From positions 1 through 64,000 of IMG/VR virus record IMGVR_UViG_3300035208_003134: a stretch of DNA of 64,000 bases. The stretch is one strand, 5' to 3'. Position numbers and translations under genes: made by a program. This DNA is from a virus (Duplodnaviria; Caudoviricetes). Under the pieces are notes generated by a model. It did not search any database and was not told the DNA's origin. It was given only the letters and a program-made list of their open reading frames with translations. Shown one piece after another: positions 3,112-44,857 of the stretch (position 1 is the stretch's first letter; every line of letters starts with the position of its first letter).

Positions 3112-3894
3112 ATGAACTATTATTGTAGTTGGGATGATGTTAAGGCTTGCCTCTTAGGTTTGGATGTTGCTGACATTCCAACCACCCTGCAAACCAGAAT
3201 AGAACAGACTTATATTCCGGCTCTCAAGAACGAAATAGATACTTATGTCCTGCAGAACCTTGATTTGACTACGATTACGGAATTCTATGACGGCTCCGGG
3301 ACCGACAAAATTATCTTAAAGAAGCGTCCGGTCAATCAGCTAACCAACTGCATCTTGCGCGTTATTCCATCCATTTCGTGGTACACCTTCGCGCGTTGGC
3401 GCCATATCAATGTTGTAGATAGTCAGGGAATTACGGTTGCTGTCCAAGGTGGTCCAGAGCCATACACTGGAAAAACTCCGCCTTATAGTCCAGGAGACTA
3501 CGTTTGGGAAACAGACATCACCAAAGCAGACCTCTTTGTGGATTGTGTAAACGGGTTTTTGACCATTCCACCGAGGATACTTTATTTGGAGATGCAGGCT
3601 ATTCCTTTTTGGAATTATACTTGGCTTAAGGGAAATGCCAACATTGAAGTTACTTACACCTATGGCTATGCAAGCGATAATTTCCCATTGGATTTAAGAA
3701 TGGCAGCTGCGAAGCTTGTGGCCGCTCAACTCTTATTGATAAAGGGGATTGGGATGAGCGCTGGGGCAAATTCTATAACCATAGATGGGGTGGCTCGTAA
3801 CTTTGGTGGTACGCCTTATGCAGCTCTGATTAAAGATTTCAGAGACCAAGCATACCAGACCTTAGACCACTTCAGGAGACTTGGAGTAGGGTAA
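3112..3894 (+). CDS. head-tail connector/adaptor protein
   Basis: Y(C)SxxDVK start, EFYDGSG, NIEVTYTYGY..PxDLRMA pattern typical of gp15/gp6-like adaptors; start moved to the ATG after GAGGAG. Confidence 0.7.
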   Translation: MNYYCSWDDVKACLLGLDVADIPTTLQTRIEQTYIPALKNEIDTYVLQNLDLTTITEFYDGSGTDKIILKKRPVNQLTNCILRVIPSISWYTFARWRHINVVDSQGITVAVQGGPEPYTGKTPPYSPGDYVWETDITKADLFVDCVNGFLTIPPRILYLEMQAIPFWNYTWLKGNANIEVTYTYGYASDNFPLDLRMAAAKLVAAQLLLIKGIGMSAGANSITIDGVARNFGGTPYAALIKDFRDQAYQTLDHFRRLGVG

Positions 3895-6922: not shown

Positions 6923-6951
6923 GCTGACAGTTAGCGAGTAGTATAAAGTGG

Positions 6952-6978
6952 GGCAGGGCGACGCAATGTCGCCCTGCC
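6952..6978 (+). terminator. hairpin (terminator/attenuator) after the tail tube gene
   Basis: GGCAGGGCGAC-gcaat-GTCGCCCTGCC perfect 11-bp stem; only a short U tract, so probably leaky. Confidence 0.7.
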
Positions 6979-9820: not shown

Positions 9821-10803
9821 TAGCGAGCTTATATTGGGTCCAAGGCGAAGACGGAGACGGAGCGCAGTACACGTTCTATCCTAAGCCGAGCGTACAGAGG
9901 AATTTCCCAGGTCAGAGGTTAGCCCAGTTTGAGATACCTGGGGTTGACGGAGCTATCTTGCAGCAAATGGGTACTTCTGTCCGCAGGATACAACTTGCCG
10001 GAGTGATTTTTGTCCGGCCGCCAAATTATGACAACCTTATGCAAGCCAAGGTTGATTTTGAAAATGGAATAGGCAGGAATGTAGGACAGTTACACATTGA
10101 GTCCTTGACCAGTCAATCCAATAGGCATCATTTTTACTATAAGTGCATACTTGAAGGTGACATTCAATGGGCTGAACAGACCAACCCACAAATTTTAGAC
10201 TATAAGGTTACTTTCTTATGTGTTGACCCGATTGAATACGAGTATTATGACTCAAGTTCCAGCTCAAGCTCTTATTCGTCATCGTCAAGTTCGTGCCGGA
10301 GCTCTTCATCATCCAGTAGTAGCTGCCGGAGTAGTTCTTCGTCCTGCTCAAGTTGCTCAAGTTCGTCCTCTTGCAGGAGCAGTTCTTCCAGCTCTAAGAG
10401 CTCCAGCTCAAGCTCCAGAAGCTCAAGTTCTTCCAGCTCTTCAAGCCGGAGTAGCTCATTAAGCAGTAGTTGTTCAAGCAGTAGCTGTTCCTCTTGCAGG
10501 AGTAGCTCATCAAGTTCGTCTTGCAGGAGCAGTTCTTCCAGCTCTTCGTCAAGCTGTAGGAGCTCAAGCTCAAGTAGCTCGTGCCGGTCAAGTTCGTCAA
10601 GTAGTTGCCGGAGCTCCAGCTCTTCAAGCAGTTGTAGGAGTAGCTCGTCAAGTTGCCGGAGCTCAAGCTCTTCGTCAAGTAGTTCTCGTAGCTCAAGCTC
10701 TTCAAGCTCAAGCAGGAGTAGTAGTTCATCCAGCAGTTCAAGTATGAGTAGTAGTTCTTCAAGTAGCAGTAACAGTTCTTCAAGCTCCAGTGCCGGAGCA
10801 TAA
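9817..10803 (+). CDS. distal tail (Dit-like) protein with about 180-aa poly-Ser/Cys/Arg tail
   Basis: EIPGVDGA..MG...RRIQL and FLCVDP pattern directly after the tape measure gene; Ser tract about 10252-10791. Confidence 0.6.
   Translation: MIASLYWVQGEDGDGAQYTFYPKPSVQRNFPGQRLAQFEIPGVDGAILQQMGTSVRRIQLAGVIFVRPPNYDNLMQAKVDFENGIGRNVGQLHIESLTSQSNRHHFYYKCILEGDIQWAEQTNPQILDYKVTFLCVDPIEYEYYDSSSSSSSYSSSSSSCRSSSSSSSSCRSSSSSCSSCSSSSSCRSSSSSSKSSSSSSRSSSSSSSSSRSSSLSSSCSSSSCSSCRSSSSSSSCRSSSSSSSSSCRSSSSSSSCRSSSSSSCRSSSSSSSCRSSSSSCRSSSSSSSSSRSSSSSSSSRSSSSSSSSSMSSSSSSSSNSSSSSSAGA
10252..10791 (+). repeat. poly-serine coding tract (SSSSSCRSSSS units)
   Basis: Mixed TCN and AGY codons, so low complexity is at the protein level rather than a DNA microsatellite. 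Confidence 0.9.
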
Positions 10804-30585: not shown

Positions 30586-31062
30586 ATGCGAACACCGCAA
30601 GAGATAGTTGATAGGATTAAAAAGGTTCAGCCGGATGATATGTTTGGGTTTCAACTTGGCGATTTGCTTCCTTACTTGCCGTGGGAACAAGCCAAGGAAT
30701 TCTTGAATGAAGAAGGCAAGAAAGAATTTGAGGGCGGTAAGTGGAAGTATGAAGAGCCGACCAAGGAGAATATCACTAAGGTTGTGCGCGAGTATATGGA
30801 GTTTGCCCTCGGTAAAGCAGAGAACCACCGTGGTCTGTCTGCCGGTCGCTCTATTGAGCATTTTAAGGCTTGGATTTGGCTTTTGGGTGATGAGGACTAC
30901 GGGGCTATAAATTGGGATGAATATGAGAATTACGGTGCACCTATTCTCCGGCAGGTTTGTGAGAGGTATGGCATACCTTTTCCTATGGACAATAAGGGCT
31001 TGGAGCGGATGTCCAGAGGCTTGTCCTGCCGTGAAGGTTGCGATGAGGGGTGTGGAAAGTAG
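30586..31062 (+). CDS. conserved phage hypothetical
   Basis: MRTPQEIV..YMEFALGKAENHRGLSAGRSIEH..YENYG pattern. Confidence 0.6.
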   Translation: MRTPQEIVDRIKKVQPDDMFGFQLGDLLPYLPWEQAKEFLNEEGKKEFEGGKWKYEEPTKENITKVVREYMEFALGKAENHRGLSAGRSIEHFKAWIWLLGDEDYGAINWDEYENYGAPILRQVCERYGIPFPMDNKGLERMSRGLSCREGCDEGCGK

Positions 31063-31093
31063 GAGATTAAAGGGGGGTGATTGATGTATATAT

Positions 31094-31183
31094 AGTATTG
31101 TATTGTTGTGTTAAGTGACGCAATCTGATGAGGTGTGCAGAGGAGTCTGGCAAGGTGGTGTGCAGTTTAGTAATGCTATGTTA
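31094..31183 (+). repeat. pentanucleotide-periodic array A, (T/A)GY-NN x18 (candidate guide RNA)
   Basis: agtat tgtat tgttg tgtta agtga cgcaa tctga tgagg tgtgc agagg agtct ggcaa ggtgg tgtgc agttt agtaa tgcta tgtta. Confidence 0.85.
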
Positions 31184-31197
31184 AATCTAAAAAGGAG

Positions 31198-31755
31198 ATG
31201 GATGAGATGAAAGGTCTAATTGATGTTGTAGTGAAGAGCAAATGCCCGATGATGCATAACAATCCGAATGGCAGTGAGGCATTGAAAGACCGTGGTAAGG
31301 TTGATTATAACGACCCTAAGATACAGAAGATAATCTTCAATGCTGCTTCTTATCACGACAAAAAGGGCAAGTATTATATACCTTCTACGCATTTTGAGAA
31401 GGTTATAGAGCTTGCCGGTTCGCGCTTTAAGTTTCAGGGTAAGTTGACATATAATTCCATTGTTAAAGGCGGAATTATTGTGTTACCAACGGAAATATAC
31501 TTTGACAAGGGCATTAAGCCTACAATGGATATACGTTGGGGGCGTATTCCACCAGGACCAAAGGGTGCTTTGGTGAAGCTTATCAGACCTTACTTTGAAA
31601 AGTGGTCTGCTAAGTTTCAAATTGATGTATTGAATGACGCCATTGATTTTGACACCTTGCATAAGATTTTGATGTATGCAGGTGGCTACATTGGCATAGG
31701 GGCTTGGCACCCGAAGTTTGGTAGGTTTGATATAGCTAAGTTTGAACAACACTAA
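31198..31755 (+). CDS. stand-alone Cas7/Csm3-like RAMP-fold protein
   Basis: beta1 IDVVVKSKCPMMH; YYIPSTHFEKVI (IPGSSxKG-equivalent); RPYFEKWSAKFQI; C-terminal Gly-rich loop AGGYIGIGAWHPKFGRF. Confidence 0.75.
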   Translation: MDEMKGLIDVVVKSKCPMMHNNPNGSEALKDRGKVDYNDPKIQKIIFNAASYHDKKGKYYIPSTHFEKVIELAGSRFKFQGKLTYNSIVKGGIIVLPTEIYFDKGIKPTMDIRWGRIPPGPKGALVKLIRPYFEKWSAKFQIDVLNDAIDFDTLHKILMYAGGYIGIGAWHPKFGRFDIAKFEQH

Positions 31756-31760
31756 TATTC

Positions 31761-31830
31761 TGTGCTGTAATGTCTTGTGCTATATGGTGTTGTTTAGTAA
31801 CGCAATGCATTGTTTTGTCCTGTAAAGTTT
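31761..31830 (+). repeat. pentanucleotide-periodic array B, x14
   Basis: tgtgc tgtaa tgtct tgtgc tatat ggtgt tgttt agtaa cgcaa tgcat tgttt tgtcc tgtaa agttt. Confidence 0.85.
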
Positions 31831-31856
31831 AATTATTAAGATTGGGGGTGATACGC

Positions 31857-32129
31857 GTGCCTAAGGTTAATAAAAAGGAAAAAATCCTGCCAAAAGGTTT
31901 TGAAGTGAAGGATTTGGTTGGTATATCTTGGGAGTCTTTGCAGCAGTTGTTTAAACAGCTTAACGGTAGGAAGATAACCAAGGAAGAATTACCTAAGTGG
32001 AAGTTAATGCTTGGCTTTGTAAATTCAACGAACAACGCTACAAAGACGAGTATGCAGTGCTTTCGTATGATTGATTTACCGGCTACTATCAAGTATATGG
32101 ATAAATCTCTCAAGAAGCGAAAGTATTGA
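31857..32129 (+). CDS. small basic protein embedded between arrays B and C
   Basis: GTG start after GGGGGTGA RBS; 90 aa, Lys-rich. Confidence 0.6.
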   Translation: MPKVNKKEKILPKGFEVKDLVGISWESLQQLFKQLNGRKITKEELPKWKLMLGFVNSTNNATKTSMQCFRMIDLPATIKYMDKSLKKRKY

Positions 32130-32134
32130 TTTAA

Positions 32135-32219
32135 TGCGGTGCGATGTTTAGCTCTGTGCGACATTGTATAGTATTGTGTGGTGCAGTCGGGTGATGTAGT
32201 GCAGTGTTTAGTAATGCAA
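32135..32219 (+). repeat. pentanucleotide-periodic array C, x17
   Basis: tgcgg tgcga tgttt agctc tgtgc gacat tgtat agtat tgtgt ggtgc agtcg ggtga tgtag tgcag tgttt agtaa tgcaa. Confidence 0.85.
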
Positions 32220-32242
32220 TTAGTTTTAATTAGATTTGTTTA

Positions 32243-32312
32243 CGCCCTGTACTGTCCGGCGATGTGGCGTAGAGAGTTGTCCTGTTATGTGGAGTTGTGT
32301 TAAGTTCTGTAA
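32243..32312 (+). repeat. pentanucleotide-periodic array D, x14
   Basis: cgccc tgtac tgtcc ggcga tgtgg cgtag agagt tgtcc tgtta tgtgg agttg tgtta agttc tgtaa. Confidence 0.85.
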
Positions 32313-32326
32313 TGAAAGGAGTTAAT

Positions 32327-32635
32327 ATGCAAGTAGGTACGATAGTGAAACTTAAACGGGATTGCCTTGACAACCCTAAAGGTGCAATAGGTGTAGTTTT
32401 TTATGACTACGGCGACGGCTTTCAGGCGATATTCCCTAATGGCAACTATGACGGATTTTCAACTGACGAGAAGGAAGATGTATTTGGCGGCCTTACTGAA
32501 GCGGACTTTATCCTTGAAGAGGTTGGCTTTGAACCTTCTTTGGCTGATTATCAGTTTAGGAATGTAATCACGGTTGACCTTGACTTTAGGCGCGGTCTTT
32601 TTGATGTTGTCTTTAAGCAGAAGGGAGAAGCGTGA
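32327..32635 (+). CDS. hypothetical protein
   Basis: ATG after AAGGAG; the track start at 32297 falls inside array D. Confidence 0.6.
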   Translation: MQVGTIVKLKRDCLDNPKGAIGVVFYDYGDGFQAIFPNGNYDGFSTDEKEDVFGGLTEADFILEEVGFEPSLADYQFRNVITVDLDFRRGLFDVVFKQKGEA

Positions 32636-32762
32636 AAGGGAAATTTCCAATCTACATAGCGGACTTAAGAGAGCTCCTGATTGCAGAGGAATTGGAATAC
32701 ATAGAGGAGCTTATCCTCTGCGCCAACGAACAGGGGTTTGAACAGGCAGATACGGGGGACTA

Positions 32763-33059
32763 ATGGAAATAATTAAAGGTAAGAGCTATAAGGTTAAAGG
32801 TAAGTCCGAGTATTTCAAAAAGAAATACGGGACTTGCAACCCTATAATTAAGATTGAGGATAAAGACACCGCACTCTGGCAAGGTGGTTGGGCTGTGCAG
32901 CAGGGAAATCCTGGGTGTATGCTCTTTGCAATGCGCTCCGGCTTTGAACATTTGCCTTGGGGTGGCACTGTTTGGTATGGGCATATTGAGATTAACTTCC
33001 CAAAGGGTGCAGGACTCGGTGAGCTCGTTCACGAGAGCGAATTGGAAGAGGTCAAATGA
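32763..33059 (+). CDS. hypothetical protein
   Basis: 98-aa ORF coupled to the next gene. Confidence 0.55.
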   Translation: MEIIKGKSYKVKGKSEYFKKKYGTCNPIIKIEDKDTALWQGGWAVQQGNPGCMLFAMRSGFEHLPWGGTVWYGHIEINFPKGAGLGELVHESELEEVK

Positions 33060-33514
33060 AATTTGTGGTCTTAAACAGAGATTATGCAGAGAGGTTTACT
33101 TGCGAAGAGCCGTACATTCATATCTGCATTACCGACCCTAAAGATACCGAGCCTAAGCTTCCGGACTGCGATAAGAGAATTGGGCTTTTGCATTTGAGGT
33201 TTCACGATTGGGATATTAGGGCTAAGGAACTTATTACTGTTAAATATAGGAAGAGCCCGACAGCCCAGGACCAGGTCTTCTTTACTGAAGACCAAGCCAG
33301 AGAGATTATTAAGTTTGTCCACGGCTTTATTGGTAGAGTGAATGTGGTGGTGGTAAATTGTGCGGCCGGAATAAGCAGGTCTCCGGCTGTGGCAGCGGCT
33401 TTGAGCAAGTGCCTGTGTGACAAAGACGGTGATTTTTTTAAGCGGTACATTCCAAATAGTTTGGTTTACTCAACCATATTGAGGGTTTGGTATGATGAAT
33501 GGGGGGAGTTTTAG
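33056..33514 (+). CDS. protein-tyrosine/dual-specificity phosphatase-like
   Basis: CX5R motif NCAAGISRS; LRFHD; PNSLV. Confidence 0.85.
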   Translation: MKFVVLNRDYAERFTCEEPYIHICITDPKDTEPKLPDCDKRIGLLHLRFHDWDIRAKELITVKYRKSPTAQDQVFFTEDQAREIIKFVHGFIGRVNVVVVNCAAGISRSPAVAAALSKCLCDKDGDFFKRYIPNSLVYSTILRVWYDEWGEF

Positions 33515-42442: not shown

Positions 42443-44857
42443 ATGTCTTCCATAATTAAGATTGACGAATTTTGTAACCAAGCCGAGTGCAAAAATTGCG
42501 GATTGAACGGGACACCAAAAGTCTTGTCCTATATAGCCAATAATGAGGTAGTTGATATCTTGGTCTTGGGTCAAAGCCCTGGATGGCAAGAAGTTGAGAA
42601 GGGCAGACCTTTTATTGGTGACTCCGGAAGCCTAATTAACCCAATCCTAACGCAGTATTCCCCGAACATAGCCTATATCAATGTCCTGCTCTGCCGTCCT
42701 TTGGATGTTGTGGAGAAAAAGGACAGAGTGCCGACCTCTGAAGAAATCCGTTGCTGCAGGGACAGGTTTAGAGAGGATTTCTCTTTCATAGTTGACAACT
42801 ACCACCCCAAAATAGTTATGGTTCTTGGCGTACCGGCTAAGAAGGAATTCCAAAGGCTCGTCAAAATGCGGCCGGAGTACGGTCAATTGATTGTAATGAC
42901 CTTTGACCACCCTTCCTTTATTTTGAGAAATAGCCATATGAAGCCCAGATACATCACTCAACTGCACAATGCCCTGAAGTCTGTGTTCGGTGGGACTTCC
43001 AACGATACAATCAAAGACTTTGTTACCTATACTGATAATGTTAAAATGCAGTTCTTGGGTGATGTGATGAGCTCAAAGCGTATCGGAGTTGATATTGAGA
43101 CCAACTCGCTTGATATGTTCAGCCTGAATTTTATCATAGGCACGGTTGCGGTGAGCTGTGACAAAGCAACCTACTTCTTTGACGGCAGAGAAAAGGATAT
43201 AAGAGAGTTCGGAGTACTTCTTGATATCCTAAAGGACGGCAAAGTCCAAAAGGTCTTTGCCGACATACTGTTTGATGTCACGAGTTTCAAACAGTATGGT
43301 ATAGAGGTCGTCAACTACACCGACCTCTTTCCTTTAGCGTTTATCTACGATAACACTTACCTTGAGTACAGCCTTGAAGCCATCACAATGCGCTATATGC
43401 CGGAGCTTGCCGAATATAAAGCTAAGTTCCAATCTTCCATAGAGAGCAATCTTTACCTGAATGCCCAGACCGAAGAGCTACGCAATTACAACTGTATGGA
43501 TGCTTACTGCACGAGGGTTTTGTATAACGGCTTATACGATAAGCTACCGGCTAAGCCTAAGGCAATATTTGATAAGGTTACAGTCCGGCTCTTGCCGGTC
43601 TTGGTGGTTATGAAATGCTCCGGTATGAAGATAGACACGCAGCTCCTTGCTTCCTATCGTAAGACCTTTGAGGGCAGGTACAATGACTTGGCGAAGTTCT
43701 TCCTTGACAAGCACGGTATAACCAGCATTAACTCTGTGCCCCAAGTGAGCAAGTGGCTATTCCAAACTCTGAAGCTGAAGCCCATAAAGTTTAATGACCC
43801 TACGGCTGCTCAAAAAGCGAAAGGGCTAAAGAAGGGCAATCCAAGCACGGACAAGGAAGTCTTGGAAGCTTATGCGTCTCAAGTGCCGGATGTTAAGCTA
43901 CTCTATGAGGCACGCAGGGTGGCAAATATTTTGGCTTATTTCGTACCATCTATTGAGGACAGTTTGGACCAAGAAGATTTTGTTCATCCCAACTACAAGC
44001 ATTATGGGATACAATCATTTAGGCTTGCTTGCCTGCGCCCCAACTTGCAGGGTATTCCGAGGGATGAGACCGGTATTGAGGTCTTGGATAAGTACCCCTT
44101 GAGGCGCTTGTTCATCTCAAGGTCTCCGAGTTCGGTTATGGCTGAATTTGATTATTCACAGCAAGAAGTCCGGATTGTTGCCGAGCTTGCGCGGGATGTC
44201 AAAATGCTTGAGGCATTTGCTAAGGGCGAAGACATCCATACCTTCGTTGCTTCTCTGGTATTCAATAAGGCAATTAGCAGTATCACTAAGCAGGAGAGGC
44301 AGATTGCTAAGGGTTGCGTCTTCGGTGCGATATTTGGTGCGTCCGCGGGCGAAATGAGTGTCCGGCTCCGAATACCGGAGCAGAAGGCACAAGCTTATTT
44401 GGATAGGTTCTTTGATATTTTCTCAAGCATAGATAGCTTTATTAGGAGACAGCACGCGGCTCTGATTAAGGATAGCTGCATTTCAACCATTTTCGGGCGT
44501 CCGCGTAAGTTTATCCTACACAGGCACAATATGTCGGACAGTAAGCGTGAAGCTGGAAATCACGCAATCCAAGCAGTTGCGGCCGACATAACTTTCTCGT
44601 CGCTCATTCAAATCTGCGACCGGCTGACTAAGGAGGACCTCCTTAATAAAGGAGTGTATCTAATTCACTCGGTGCACGACTCAATACTGTTGGATATAGA
44701 AAAAGACAAGCTACAGCATATTGTGGATACGGTCTCTGGCATTATGTCTGGAGTGCCGAATATTTTAGGGTTCAAAGTCAAGTTTCCGGTTGACTGCAAG
44801 CTCGGTACTCGTTGGGGGCAGTCCGAGAAGCTTGAAGAAGTACTAAAGTGTAGTTAA
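42443..44857 (+). CDS. polA: family A DNA polymerase with N-terminal uracil-DNA glycosylase (family 4-like) domain
   Basis: UDG: GQSPG..PFIG.SG, CRP, HPS. Exonuclease: DIET, YNCMD. Polymerase: DYSQQEVR, RQIAK..FG, VHDS. Confidence 0.9.
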   Translation: MSSIIKIDEFCNQAECKNCGLNGTPKVLSYIANNEVVDILVLGQSPGWQEVEKGRPFIGDSGSLINPILTQYSPNIAYINVLLCRPLDVVEKKDRVPTSEEIRCCRDRFREDFSFIVDNYHPKIVMVLGVPAKKEFQRLVKMRPEYGQLIVMTFDHPSFILRNSHMKPRYITQLHNALKSVFGGTSNDTIKDFVTYTDNVKMQFLGDVMSSKRIGVDIETNSLDMFSLNFIIGTVAVSCDKATYFFDGREKDIREFGVLLDILKDGKVQKVFADILFDVTSFKQYGIEVVNYTDLFPLAFIYDNTYLEYSLEAITMRYMPELAEYKAKFQSSIESNLYLNAQTEELRNYNCMDAYCTRVLYNGLYDKLPAKPKAIFDKVTVRLLPVLVVMKCSGMKIDTQLLASYRKTFEGRYNDLAKFFLDKHGITSINSVPQVSKWLFQTLKLKPIKFNDPTAAQKAKGLKKGNPSTDKEVLEAYASQVPDVKLLYEARRVANILAYFVPSIEDSLDQEDFVHPNYKHYGIQSFRLACLRPNLQGIPRDETGIEVLDKYPLRRLFISRSPSSVMAEFDYSQQEVRIVAELARDVKMLEAFAKGEDIHTFVASLVFNKAISSITKQERQIAKGCVFGAIFGASAGEMSVRLRIPEQKAQAYLDRFFDIFSSIDSFIRRQHAALIKDSCISTIFGRPRKFILHRHNMSDSKREAGNHAIQAVAADITFSSLIQICDRLTKEDLLNKGVYLIHSVHDSILLDIEKDKLQHIVDTVSGIMSGVPNILGFKVKFPVDCKLGTRWGQSEKLEEVLKCS

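What the first reader, a model, noticed from the sequence alone, without database searches (positions are those of the whole stretch)
31094..32312. Solo Cas7/RAMP-like gene flanked by four 5-nt-periodic (T/A)GY-NN arrays: candidate RNA-guided system with a gapped code
Seen: four non-coding tracts (31094-31183, 31761-31830, 32135-32219, 32243-32312; 63 pentamers counted by hand) fill the intergenic space around a 185-aa gene and one small accessory gene. Position 2 is G in 60/63 units, position 3 is a pyrimidine in 60/63, position 1 is T/A in 52/63, and positions 4-5 vary freely. I saw this periodicity nowhere else in the window. Knowledge: the protein has RAMP hallmarks (beta1-Pro, YYIPS helix motif, C-terminal Gly-rich loop GYIGIGAW..FGRF), and Cas7/Csm3 RAMPs polymerise along guide RNA with a fixed step. 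No cas1/cas2, nuclease or repeat-spacer CRISPR is present in the window. Inference: each subunit grips a constant trinucleotide and presents a variable dinucleotide, so each array is a guide encoding a non-contiguous target, probably for silencing or interference against competing phages. From memory this resembles the recently reported viral VIPR-type architecture (GGY-NN), but the constant triplet here is mainly TGT/AGT, so it may be a new variant; verify this comparison.
Basis: partly seen in the sequence, partly recalled or inferred. Interest (0 to 1): 0.96.

Follow-up and report, generated by a model that had tools for sequence, protein, structure and literature searches.

The report
Phage VIPR guide-RNA system, WGY variant
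This is a real example of the phage VIPR system described in 2026: a small Cas7-like protein, a small partner gene and guide-RNA genes built from five-base repeats. It uses an already reported off-consensus repeat (A/T-G-Y instead of G-G-Y), so it adds a new member and one mechanistic clue rather than a new kind of system.

Summary
Four plus-strand tracts contain 63 pentamers, with G at position 2 in 60, a pyrimidine at position 3 in 60 and A/T at position 1 in 52. No other place in the 97.9-kb phage genome has this pattern.

The 182-aa gene (31207-31755) is a Vipr protein:
- Its family profile matches the solved SUSP1 Vipr protein (PDB 36pp) over its full length, E 3e-28.

VIPR was published in 2026 in four bioRxiv preprints. 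They already mention YNNNG and "WGT/NN" repeats, so this is a new member of a known kind. This scan has flagged VIPR loci in over 300 other genomes.

What this work adds:
- The G-loop Asp that hydrogen-bonds repeat base G1 in SUSP1 is Ala here.
- Across about 120 loci, Asp goes with G1 (0.63-1.0 of units) and Ala or Val with non-G (0.04-0.20). There are at least two independent origins, including high-GC genomes.
- A basic 90-aa accessory gene of no known family is conserved in the clade.

No targets were found, and no RNA data exist. The mechanism is inferred by homology.

The parts
31084..31183 (+). vrRNA tract A, upstream of vipr: about 20 pentamers. It probably holds two guides, A1 ending at about 31124 and A2 at 31125-31183, each closed by a tail motif.
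   Evidence: Register and units. Tail motifs at 31105-31125 and 31160-31180.
31207..31755 (+). vipr gene, 182 aa. The ATG at 31207 lies 9 nt after AGGAG at 31193-31197. The longer 185-aa frame from 31198 is less likely.
31756..31835 (+). vrRNA tract B, between vipr and vap: 10 pentamers ending in a tail motif at 31787-31807, then about 5 further pentamers with no tail (possibly a remnant).
31857..32129 (+). vap-like accessory gene, 90 aa, pI 10.1. The GTG start lies 5 nt after GGGGGTGA.
   Evidence: Conserved next to vipr in L006, L007, L009 and L086, and truncated in L008. BLASTP E 6e-10 to the L006 ORF. No Pfam, PHROG, PDB or Atlas match. Unrelated to SUSP1 vap1. Composition.
32135..32221 (+). 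vrRNA tract C: 17 pentamers ending in a tail motif at 32201-32221.
32243..32314 (+). vrRNA tract D: 14 pentamers ending in a tail-motif variant at 32294-32314. Its register is shifted by 3 nt relative to tract C.

Best explanation
The locus 31084-32314 is a VIPR (Viral Interference Programmable Repeat) cassette in a complete 97.9-kb uncultivated phage found in groundwater and landfill. It consists of vipr, a clade-specific small basic vap gene and four co-oriented tracts that encode about five vrRNAs.

The mechanism is inferred from the solved SUSP1 system, not shown here. The tracts are transcribed and cut into guides. One Vipr protomer binds each pentamer. The G2 and Y3 bases, and whatever base sits at position 1, are flipped out and held by the thumb and the Gly-rich loop. 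The two variable bases of each unit are presented for pairing with double-stranded DNA that reads NNxNNx. Binding silences genes of a competing mobile element.

This member belongs to a subclade in which the G-loop Asp that reads repeat base G1 in SUSP1 (D177) is Ala (A169 in the 185-aa frame, A166 in the 182-aa protein). Accordingly the repeats are W-G-Y-N-N instead of G-G-Y-N-N. The contacts for G2 (R130, W170) are kept.
For: Shown here:
- The periodic arrays exist only at this locus and only on the gene strand.
- The family profile hits SUSP1 Vipr (PDB 36pp_D) over its full length, E 3.2e-28. hhalign probability is 99.7.
- The family is large: 2,698 50%-identity clusters at E <= 1e-3.
- The genome is an IMG/VR virus record rated 100% complete by CheckV.
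- The five nearest Vipr loci (L006-L009 at 35-44% identity, and L086 in a Paceibacterota MAG) share vipr, a vap homologue and multiple WGY-NN arrays. Their flanking genes differ.
- Between the close pair L006 and L086, the array ends are conserved while the inner NN bases and the number of units differ.
- Residue map: D177->A169, R179->H171, W178->W170, R138->R130, H17->N21.
- Covariation: with Asp at this site, 35 loci have G at position 1 in 0.63-1.0 of units (median 0.90). With Ala, 7 loci have 0.04-0.20. With Val, 0.07. With Gly or Ser, intermediate values.
- Non-Asp loci with 58-65% GC still lack G1, so base composition does not explain it.
- The tree gives at least two independent non-Asp origins.

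From papers:
- Architecture, 1-nt skip rule and silencing: 10.64898/2026.04.26.720920.
- Protomer contacts, and loss of SUSP1 function in the D177A mutant: 10.64898/2026.04.26.720927.
Against: No RNA data exist for this phage, so transcription, processing sites and guide ends are unknown. No target was identified, which leaves the silencing role and the 1-nt skip rule unverified for this clade.

The tracts show no predicted structured tail or pseudoknot like that of the SUSP1 clade (z -0.4 to +1.3). There is only a conserved 16-nt in-register motif.

The 10-residue segment that holds SUSP1 K33, a skip-base backbone contact, is absent from this protein. The target geometry could therefore differ.

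In SUSP1 the D177A change kills activity. The Ala here works only if the rest of the pocket has co-adapted.
Confidence: 0.9

Rival explanations
1. It is a decaying or inactive VIPR relic. The natural Ala at the D177 position, a change that abolishes SUSP1 function, and the loss of G1 in the repeats would then reflect erosion rather than a working variant.
For: The D177A mutant of SUSP1 Vipr loses silencing (10.64898/2026.04.26.720927, read). Tract B carries a tail-less run of 5 units, and tract A1 is short.
Against: Both ORFs are intact. G2 and Y3 are kept in 60 of 63 units. The Ala state with WGY repeats is shared by a well-supported clade of six divergent loci (bootstrap/aLRT 100/96) and recurs elsewhere. 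The arrays in relatives are long, with 53-93 units. The identical locus is present in two studies sampled four years apart.
Confidence: 0.05
2. It is a working Vipr-guide complex with a different output from transcriptional silencing of double-stranded DNA. It could target RNA, or the unknown Vap could recruit another activity. It could also use a pairing rule other than the 1-nt skip.
For: The Vap has no known family and is unrelated to SUSP1 vap1. The K33-bearing bundle segment is missing. No 1-nt-skip target was found. The nearest solved folds are RNA-targeting Csm3 and Cas7-11.
Against: All seven published VIPR types are reported to be built on the same repeat code, and their vap genes are DNA-related (10.64898/2026.04.26.720920). 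The Vap is small and very basic (pI 10.1), which fits nucleic-acid binding better than an enzyme. The target searches needed exact matches and covered limited data, so their silence carries little weight.
Confidence: 0.1
3. The tracts act as DNA, not as RNA guides. They could be phased protein-binding or bending sites that regulate the two small genes.
For: They fill the intergenic space around the genes. No promoter or terminator consensus was found beside them.
Against: The signal is strictly strand-asymmetric. The adjacent protein is a homologue of an RNA-binding RAMP that was solved in complex with exactly this kind of repeat RNA. A protein residue known to contact the RNA base covaries with that base across loci.
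Confidence: 0.02

Closest known systems
VIPR systems (Vipr protein + vrRNA), with type II Escherichia phage SUSP1 as the experimental model (bioRxiv 10.64898/2026.04.26.720920 and .720927; PDB 36pp)
   Same: The protein is a homologous minimal RAMP with an RRM core, thumb and G-loop. The G2 contacts R138 and W178 are conserved as R130 and W170. The locus has two genes. Tandem pentamer tracts with a fixed triplet and free dinucleotide flank the genes on the same strand. The genome is a phage. There are no cas genes and no CRISPR array.
   Different: Identity to SUSP1 Vipr is only about 22%. Repeat position 1 is A/T (52 of 63) rather than G. The G1-reading Asp is Ala, and R179 is His. One vrRNA tract sits between vipr and vap. 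The Vap is unrelated to vap1. The guide ends carry an unstructured in-register motif (GTTwAGTnnYGYwAT) in place of a pseudoknotted tail. No targets are known.
Non-canonical VIPR arrays ('YNNNG' in 10.64898/2026.04.26.720920 methods; 'WGT/NN, TGH/NN, GAC/NN' clusters in 10.64898/2026.10.21.760802)
   Same: The repeat class is the same: W-G-Y/NN pentamers next to a Vipr-fold protein.
   Different: In the text I could read, those reports list motifs but do not tie the motif to a G-loop residue. Their figures and supplements were not available, so I cannot tell whether this exact clade is among their clusters, or which of types I-VII it belongs to.
Cas7-family backbone subunits of class 1 CRISPR effectors (Csm3, Cmr4, type VII Cas7, Cas7-11)
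   Different: The step is 5 nt rather than 6 nt. Three guide bases are flipped per unit. There is no repeat-spacer array, no Cas6/Cas5/Cas10/Cas11 partner and no adaptation genes. No sequence-level match reaches significance (Cas7-11 E about 1).

Membership tests
VIPR system | Vipr protein: a minimal RAMP homologue (RRM core, thumb, Gly-rich loop) related in sequence to described Vipr proteins | tested here: met
VIPR system | Tandem pentamer repeats (at least 4 units) with a conserved triplet and hypervariable NN, next to vipr | tested here: met
   63 units in four tracts. Information content at positions 1-5 is 0.45, 1.68, 1.01, 0.10 and 0.03 bits. The tracts are unique in the genome.
VIPR system | Canonical GGY triplet | tested here: not met
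   Position 1 is G in only 7 of 63 units. The repeat instead fits the published alternative consensus YNNNG and 'WGT/NN'. This failure does not exclude membership, because the authors include such repeats.
VIPR system | Minimal locus without cas genes or a CRISPR array | tested here: met
   No Cas1 match in the genome. No CRISPR-like tandem array in the window. Only vipr and vap are conserved with related loci.
VIPR system | Accessory vap gene beside vipr | tested here: inconclusive
   A 90-aa basic ORF is conserved beside vipr within the clade. It is unrelated to SUSP1 vap1 and has no family match. Sequences of vap2-6 were not available for comparison.
VIPR system | Viral or proviral genome context | tested here: met
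   G000 is an IMG/VR virus record of 97,890 bp, rated 100% complete by CheckV.
VIPR system | Conserved 3' tail closing each vrRNA | tested here: inconclusive
   Five copies of GTTwAGTnnYGYwAT lie at tract ends, and a related AGTAAwGCTTyT boundary occurs in relatives. No significant fold is predicted, and the RNA ends are unknown.
VIPR system | vrRNAs are expressed and co-purify with Vipr | not testable with these tools
   No RNA run holds this phage.
VIPR system | Guides match natural targets by the 1-nt skip rule, with no self-targets | tested here: inconclusive
   No self-match exceeds the shuffled null, which agrees with the papers. No external target was found.
CRISPR-Cas class 1 (type III-like) | Cas7 fold together with a repeat-spacer array and other cas genes | tested here: not met
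   The fold is present. There is no Cas1 in the genome and no repeat-spacer array in the window.

The most novel reading that the evidence does not exclude
The residue at the SUSP1-D177 position of the Vipr G-loop sets the identity of repeat base 1. Asp reads G, Ala or Val accepts non-G, and Ser or Gly is intermediate. VIPR lineages would then carry a simple, evolvable protein-RNA 'handle code'. Switching it would make a system orthogonal to rivals' guides. That would include the solo decoy vrRNAs that satellites and phages use to hijack foreign Vipr proteins (10.64898/2026.10.15.759431). This phage's WGY/Ala system would be such an insulated variant.
Probability: 0.35. Interest if true: 0.55.

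Novelty: new member of a known kind. Interest (0 to 1): 0.35.

Why it matters
The locus itself is one more VIPR system. The kind is in print, and this scan has already flagged it in more than 300 genomes.

Three things give it modest value:
- It is a clean natural example of the off-consensus W-G-Y repeat. It comes from a complete phage of an uncultivated groundwater host, far from the Escherichia and Pseudomonas models.
- Comparing about 120 loci links the repeat's first base to one G-loop residue that the cryo-EM work showed contacting that base. This gives a testable rule for engineering orthogonal Vipr/guide pairs, and for predicting the repeat consensus from the protein.
- It defines a small basic accessory protein family with no known relatives, conserved with this Vipr clade.

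Tried and rejected
- **Target search, own genome and related loci.** The best 1-nt-skip matches of every guide definition in the phage's own genome equal the shuffled-guide null. The same holds in 130 related loci.
- **Target search, public collections.** Exact NNx patterns returned 0 hits in IMG/VR for guide D (11 units), guide C (units 5-14), guide A2 (11 units) and guide B (10 units). Guide D and guide C (units 1-11) returned 0 hits in JGI metagenomes. Guide D (14 units, up to 3 mismatches) returned 0 hits in 301 Omnitrophota genomes. Exact matching and uncertain guide ends make these weak negatives.
- **Terminase idea.** The best own-genome match (21 of 34, at 93524) lies in a glycosyl/methyltransferase-like ORF and is at chance level. 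The idea is not supported.
- **RNA evidence.** No RNA holder is listed for this stretch.
- **Natural variation of the NN bases.** Contigs from three DNA runs are identical wherever they cover the locus, so they give no information.
- **Other negatives.** Megablast of 24 kb against isolated phages gave no match. Rfam gave no family, including no hammerhead. The sigma-70 promoter and terminator scan was at chance level. The first AF2 run on a 4-sequence alignment was poor (pLDDT 59) and was replaced.
- **Not sent.** Complex prediction was not used, because no claim of Vipr-Vap binding is made.

Full report
**Observation**

Reading 30700-32700 and splitting the intergenic stretches into pentamers shows one dominant register in each tract.
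- Position 1 is A/T in 52 of 63 (T 37, A 15, G 7, C 4).
- Position 2 is G in 60 of 63.
- Position 3 is C/T in 60 of 63.
- Positions 4-5 are close to random, at 0.10 and 0.03 bits, with 15 different dinucleotides.

A sliding count of G-Y at 5-nt spacing reaches 9-10 of 10 only at 31090-31199, 31752-31846 and 32126-32333, all on the + strand. The minus strand never exceeds 6, and shuffles peak at 6-8. The window is the first 64 kb of a 97,890-bp IMG/VR virus record that CheckV rates 100% complete. The whole genome has no other such array.

**The protein**

The 185-aa frame has no Pfam hit. It matches phrog_4652, of unknown function. As a single sequence it matches PDB 36pp_D, 'SUSP1 Vipr protein', at E 2.5e-6 over the G-loop region.

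An exhaustive HMMER search with a 4-sequence profile found 2,698 50%-identity clusters at E <= 1e-3. A 112-sequence profile hits SUSP1 Vipr over its full length at E 3.2e-28, and hhalign gives probability 99.7.

The real start is probably the ATG at 31207, giving 182 aa. It lies 9 nt after AGGAG, and the homologues begin MKG/MLG.

**What is known**

VIPR is published in four preprints:
- 10.64898/2026.04.26.720920 covers discovery, vrRNAs of 9-16 GGY/NN repeats plus a tail, the 1-nt skip rule, silencing, seven types and vap1-6.
- 10.64898/2026.04.26.720927 covers the cryo-EM structures. One protomer binds each repeat. G1 is read by H17 and D177, G2 by R138 and W178, and Y3 by a pocket that includes R179.
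- 10.64898/2026.10.15.759431 covers competition between phage and satellite, and solo decoy guides.
- 10.64898/2026.10.21.760802 recovers VIPR arrays with a language model.

The first paper's methods state that some loci use NNNGG, YNNNG or NNNNG repeats. The fourth lists non-canonical motifs including 'WGT/NN'. This scan also holds 435 earlier VIPR notes from at least 311 genomes.

**Relatives and locus anatomy**

A pattern scan of IMG/VR returned 80 Vipr loci, and a scan of GTDB genomes returned 44. As a positive control, my array detector recovers the published layout in SUSP1: one upstream and three downstream vrRNAs.

In a maximum-likelihood tree the window's protein sits on a long branch inside a 100/96-supported clade with L006-L009 (35-44% identity) and L086, a Candidatus Paceibacterota MAG contig. 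These loci share three things:
- vipr.
- A vap homologue of roughly 100 aa (BLASTP 6e-10). L086 begins one as well.
- Many W-G-Y-N-N arrays of 53-93 units.

The flanking genes are not shared, so this is a mobile two-gene cassette.

The Vap is basic (pI 10.1). It has no Pfam, PHROG, PDB or Atlas relative and is unrelated to SUSP1 vap1.

In the relatives, guides are separated by AGTAAwGCTTyT with a register shift. In the window a related in-register motif, GTTwAGTnnYGYwAT, closes five runs, at 31105-31125, 31160-31180, 31787-31807, 32201-32221 and 32294-32314. This suggests about five guides of roughly 8, 11, 10, 17 and 14 units. Between the close pair L006 and L086 the array ends are conserved, while the inner NN bases and the number of units differ. 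That is the expected behaviour of a programmable guide. The tracts have no significant predicted structure (z -0.4 to +1.3) and no Rfam match.

**A mechanistic clue**

Mapping the published contacts onto this protein gives the following.
- The G2 contacts are conserved: R138->R130 and W178->W170.
- The G1 contacts are changed: D177->A169 and H17->N21.
- R179 becomes H171.
- The 10-residue segment carrying K33 is absent.

I then scored every fetched locus for the G-loop residue and for the base preceding the G-Y anchor:

| G-loop residue | Loci | Fraction of units with G at position 1 |
|---|---|---|
| Asp | 35 | 0.63-1.0 (median 0.90) |
| Ala | 7 | 0.04-0.20 |
| Val | 1 | 0.07 |
| Gly | 15 | 0.32-0.85 |
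| Ser | 3 | 0.27-0.64 |

The Asp and Ala ranges do not overlap. Composition does not explain this. Non-Asp loci of 58-65% GC use AGC, CGC or TGC units, and the 40% GC SUSP1 locus still uses GGY.

The tree shows at least two independent non-Asp origins with low G1: the window's super-clade and L081. The Gly clade shows a partial relaxation. The states are still phylogenetically clustered, so the number of independent contrasts is small.

I did not find this link in the searchable text of the four preprints. Their figures and supplements were not available. In SUSP1 the engineered D177A mutant is dead. The natural Ala lineages must therefore have co-adapted.

**Function and targets**

By homology the most likely function is RNA-guided binding and silencing of DNA from a competing element. 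I could not confirm this:
- No guide matches its own genome above a shuffled null, as the papers report for other systems.
- Exact NNx patterns of four guides gave nothing in IMG/VR or JGI metagenomes.
- Guide D with up to 3 mismatches gave nothing in 301 Omnitrophota genomes.
- Nothing matched in 130 related VIPR loci.
- The idea that tract C spells a terminase motif found no support.

The same phage sequence, with no differences where covered, occurs in two groundwater runs of one 2022 study (one of them possibly the source sample) and in a landfill run from 2018. No RNA run is listed.

**Verdict**

The locus is a new member of a known kind, with the off-consensus W-G-Y repeat already reported. 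The added value is the Asp/Ala-G1 covariation, a new small accessory family and an unusual habitat and host range. The targets, the RNA ends and the skip rule for this clade remain open.

Noticed in passing
L069:2790-2890 and 3390-3480 (the same contig as L105, a Candidatus Omnitrophota MAG): This Vipr homologue has the same Ala-Trp-His G-loop as the window protein (GLSAWHPKYGRF). Its arrays are N-G-A-N-N pentamers, for example TGAAC GGAGT CGACC. Here a purine replaces the pyrimidine at position 3.
   Followed up: partly
L006:3375-3735, L007:3885-4323, L008:3452-3779: The nearest relatives hold long back-to-back guide arrays. Each guide ends in wGCTTyT and the next starts with a register shift. 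This resembles the 'staggered arrays' named in the first VIPR paper's fig. S18 legend.
   Followed up: partly
window 32166-32365: In the landfill run (X3) the contigs stop at 32165 and resume at 32366, which is exactly across tracts C and D, while the flanks are identical. This may be low coverage, or it may be a different guide set in that population. Contigs cannot tell which.
   Followed up: no
window 33056-33514: A 152-aa ORF gives a weak dual-specificity phosphatase match (PF00782, E 1.6e-5, below the cut-off) and matches phrog_5614. It lies two genes downstream of the VIPR cassette.
   Followed up: no
window 6923-6972: This is the only other place where the G-Y periodicity count reaches 7 of 10. 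That is within the range of shuffles, so it is chance.
   Followed up: yes
window 10381-10784: Tandem Repeats Finder reports imperfect repeats of 15-48 nt here. They fall in the poly-serine tail-protein region that earlier notes on this genome already describe.
   Followed up: no
window 42443-44857: This family A DNA polymerase-like ORF has only 22-28% identity to any isolated phage, and a 24-kb megablast finds nothing. The phage has no cultivated relatives.
   Followed up: partly
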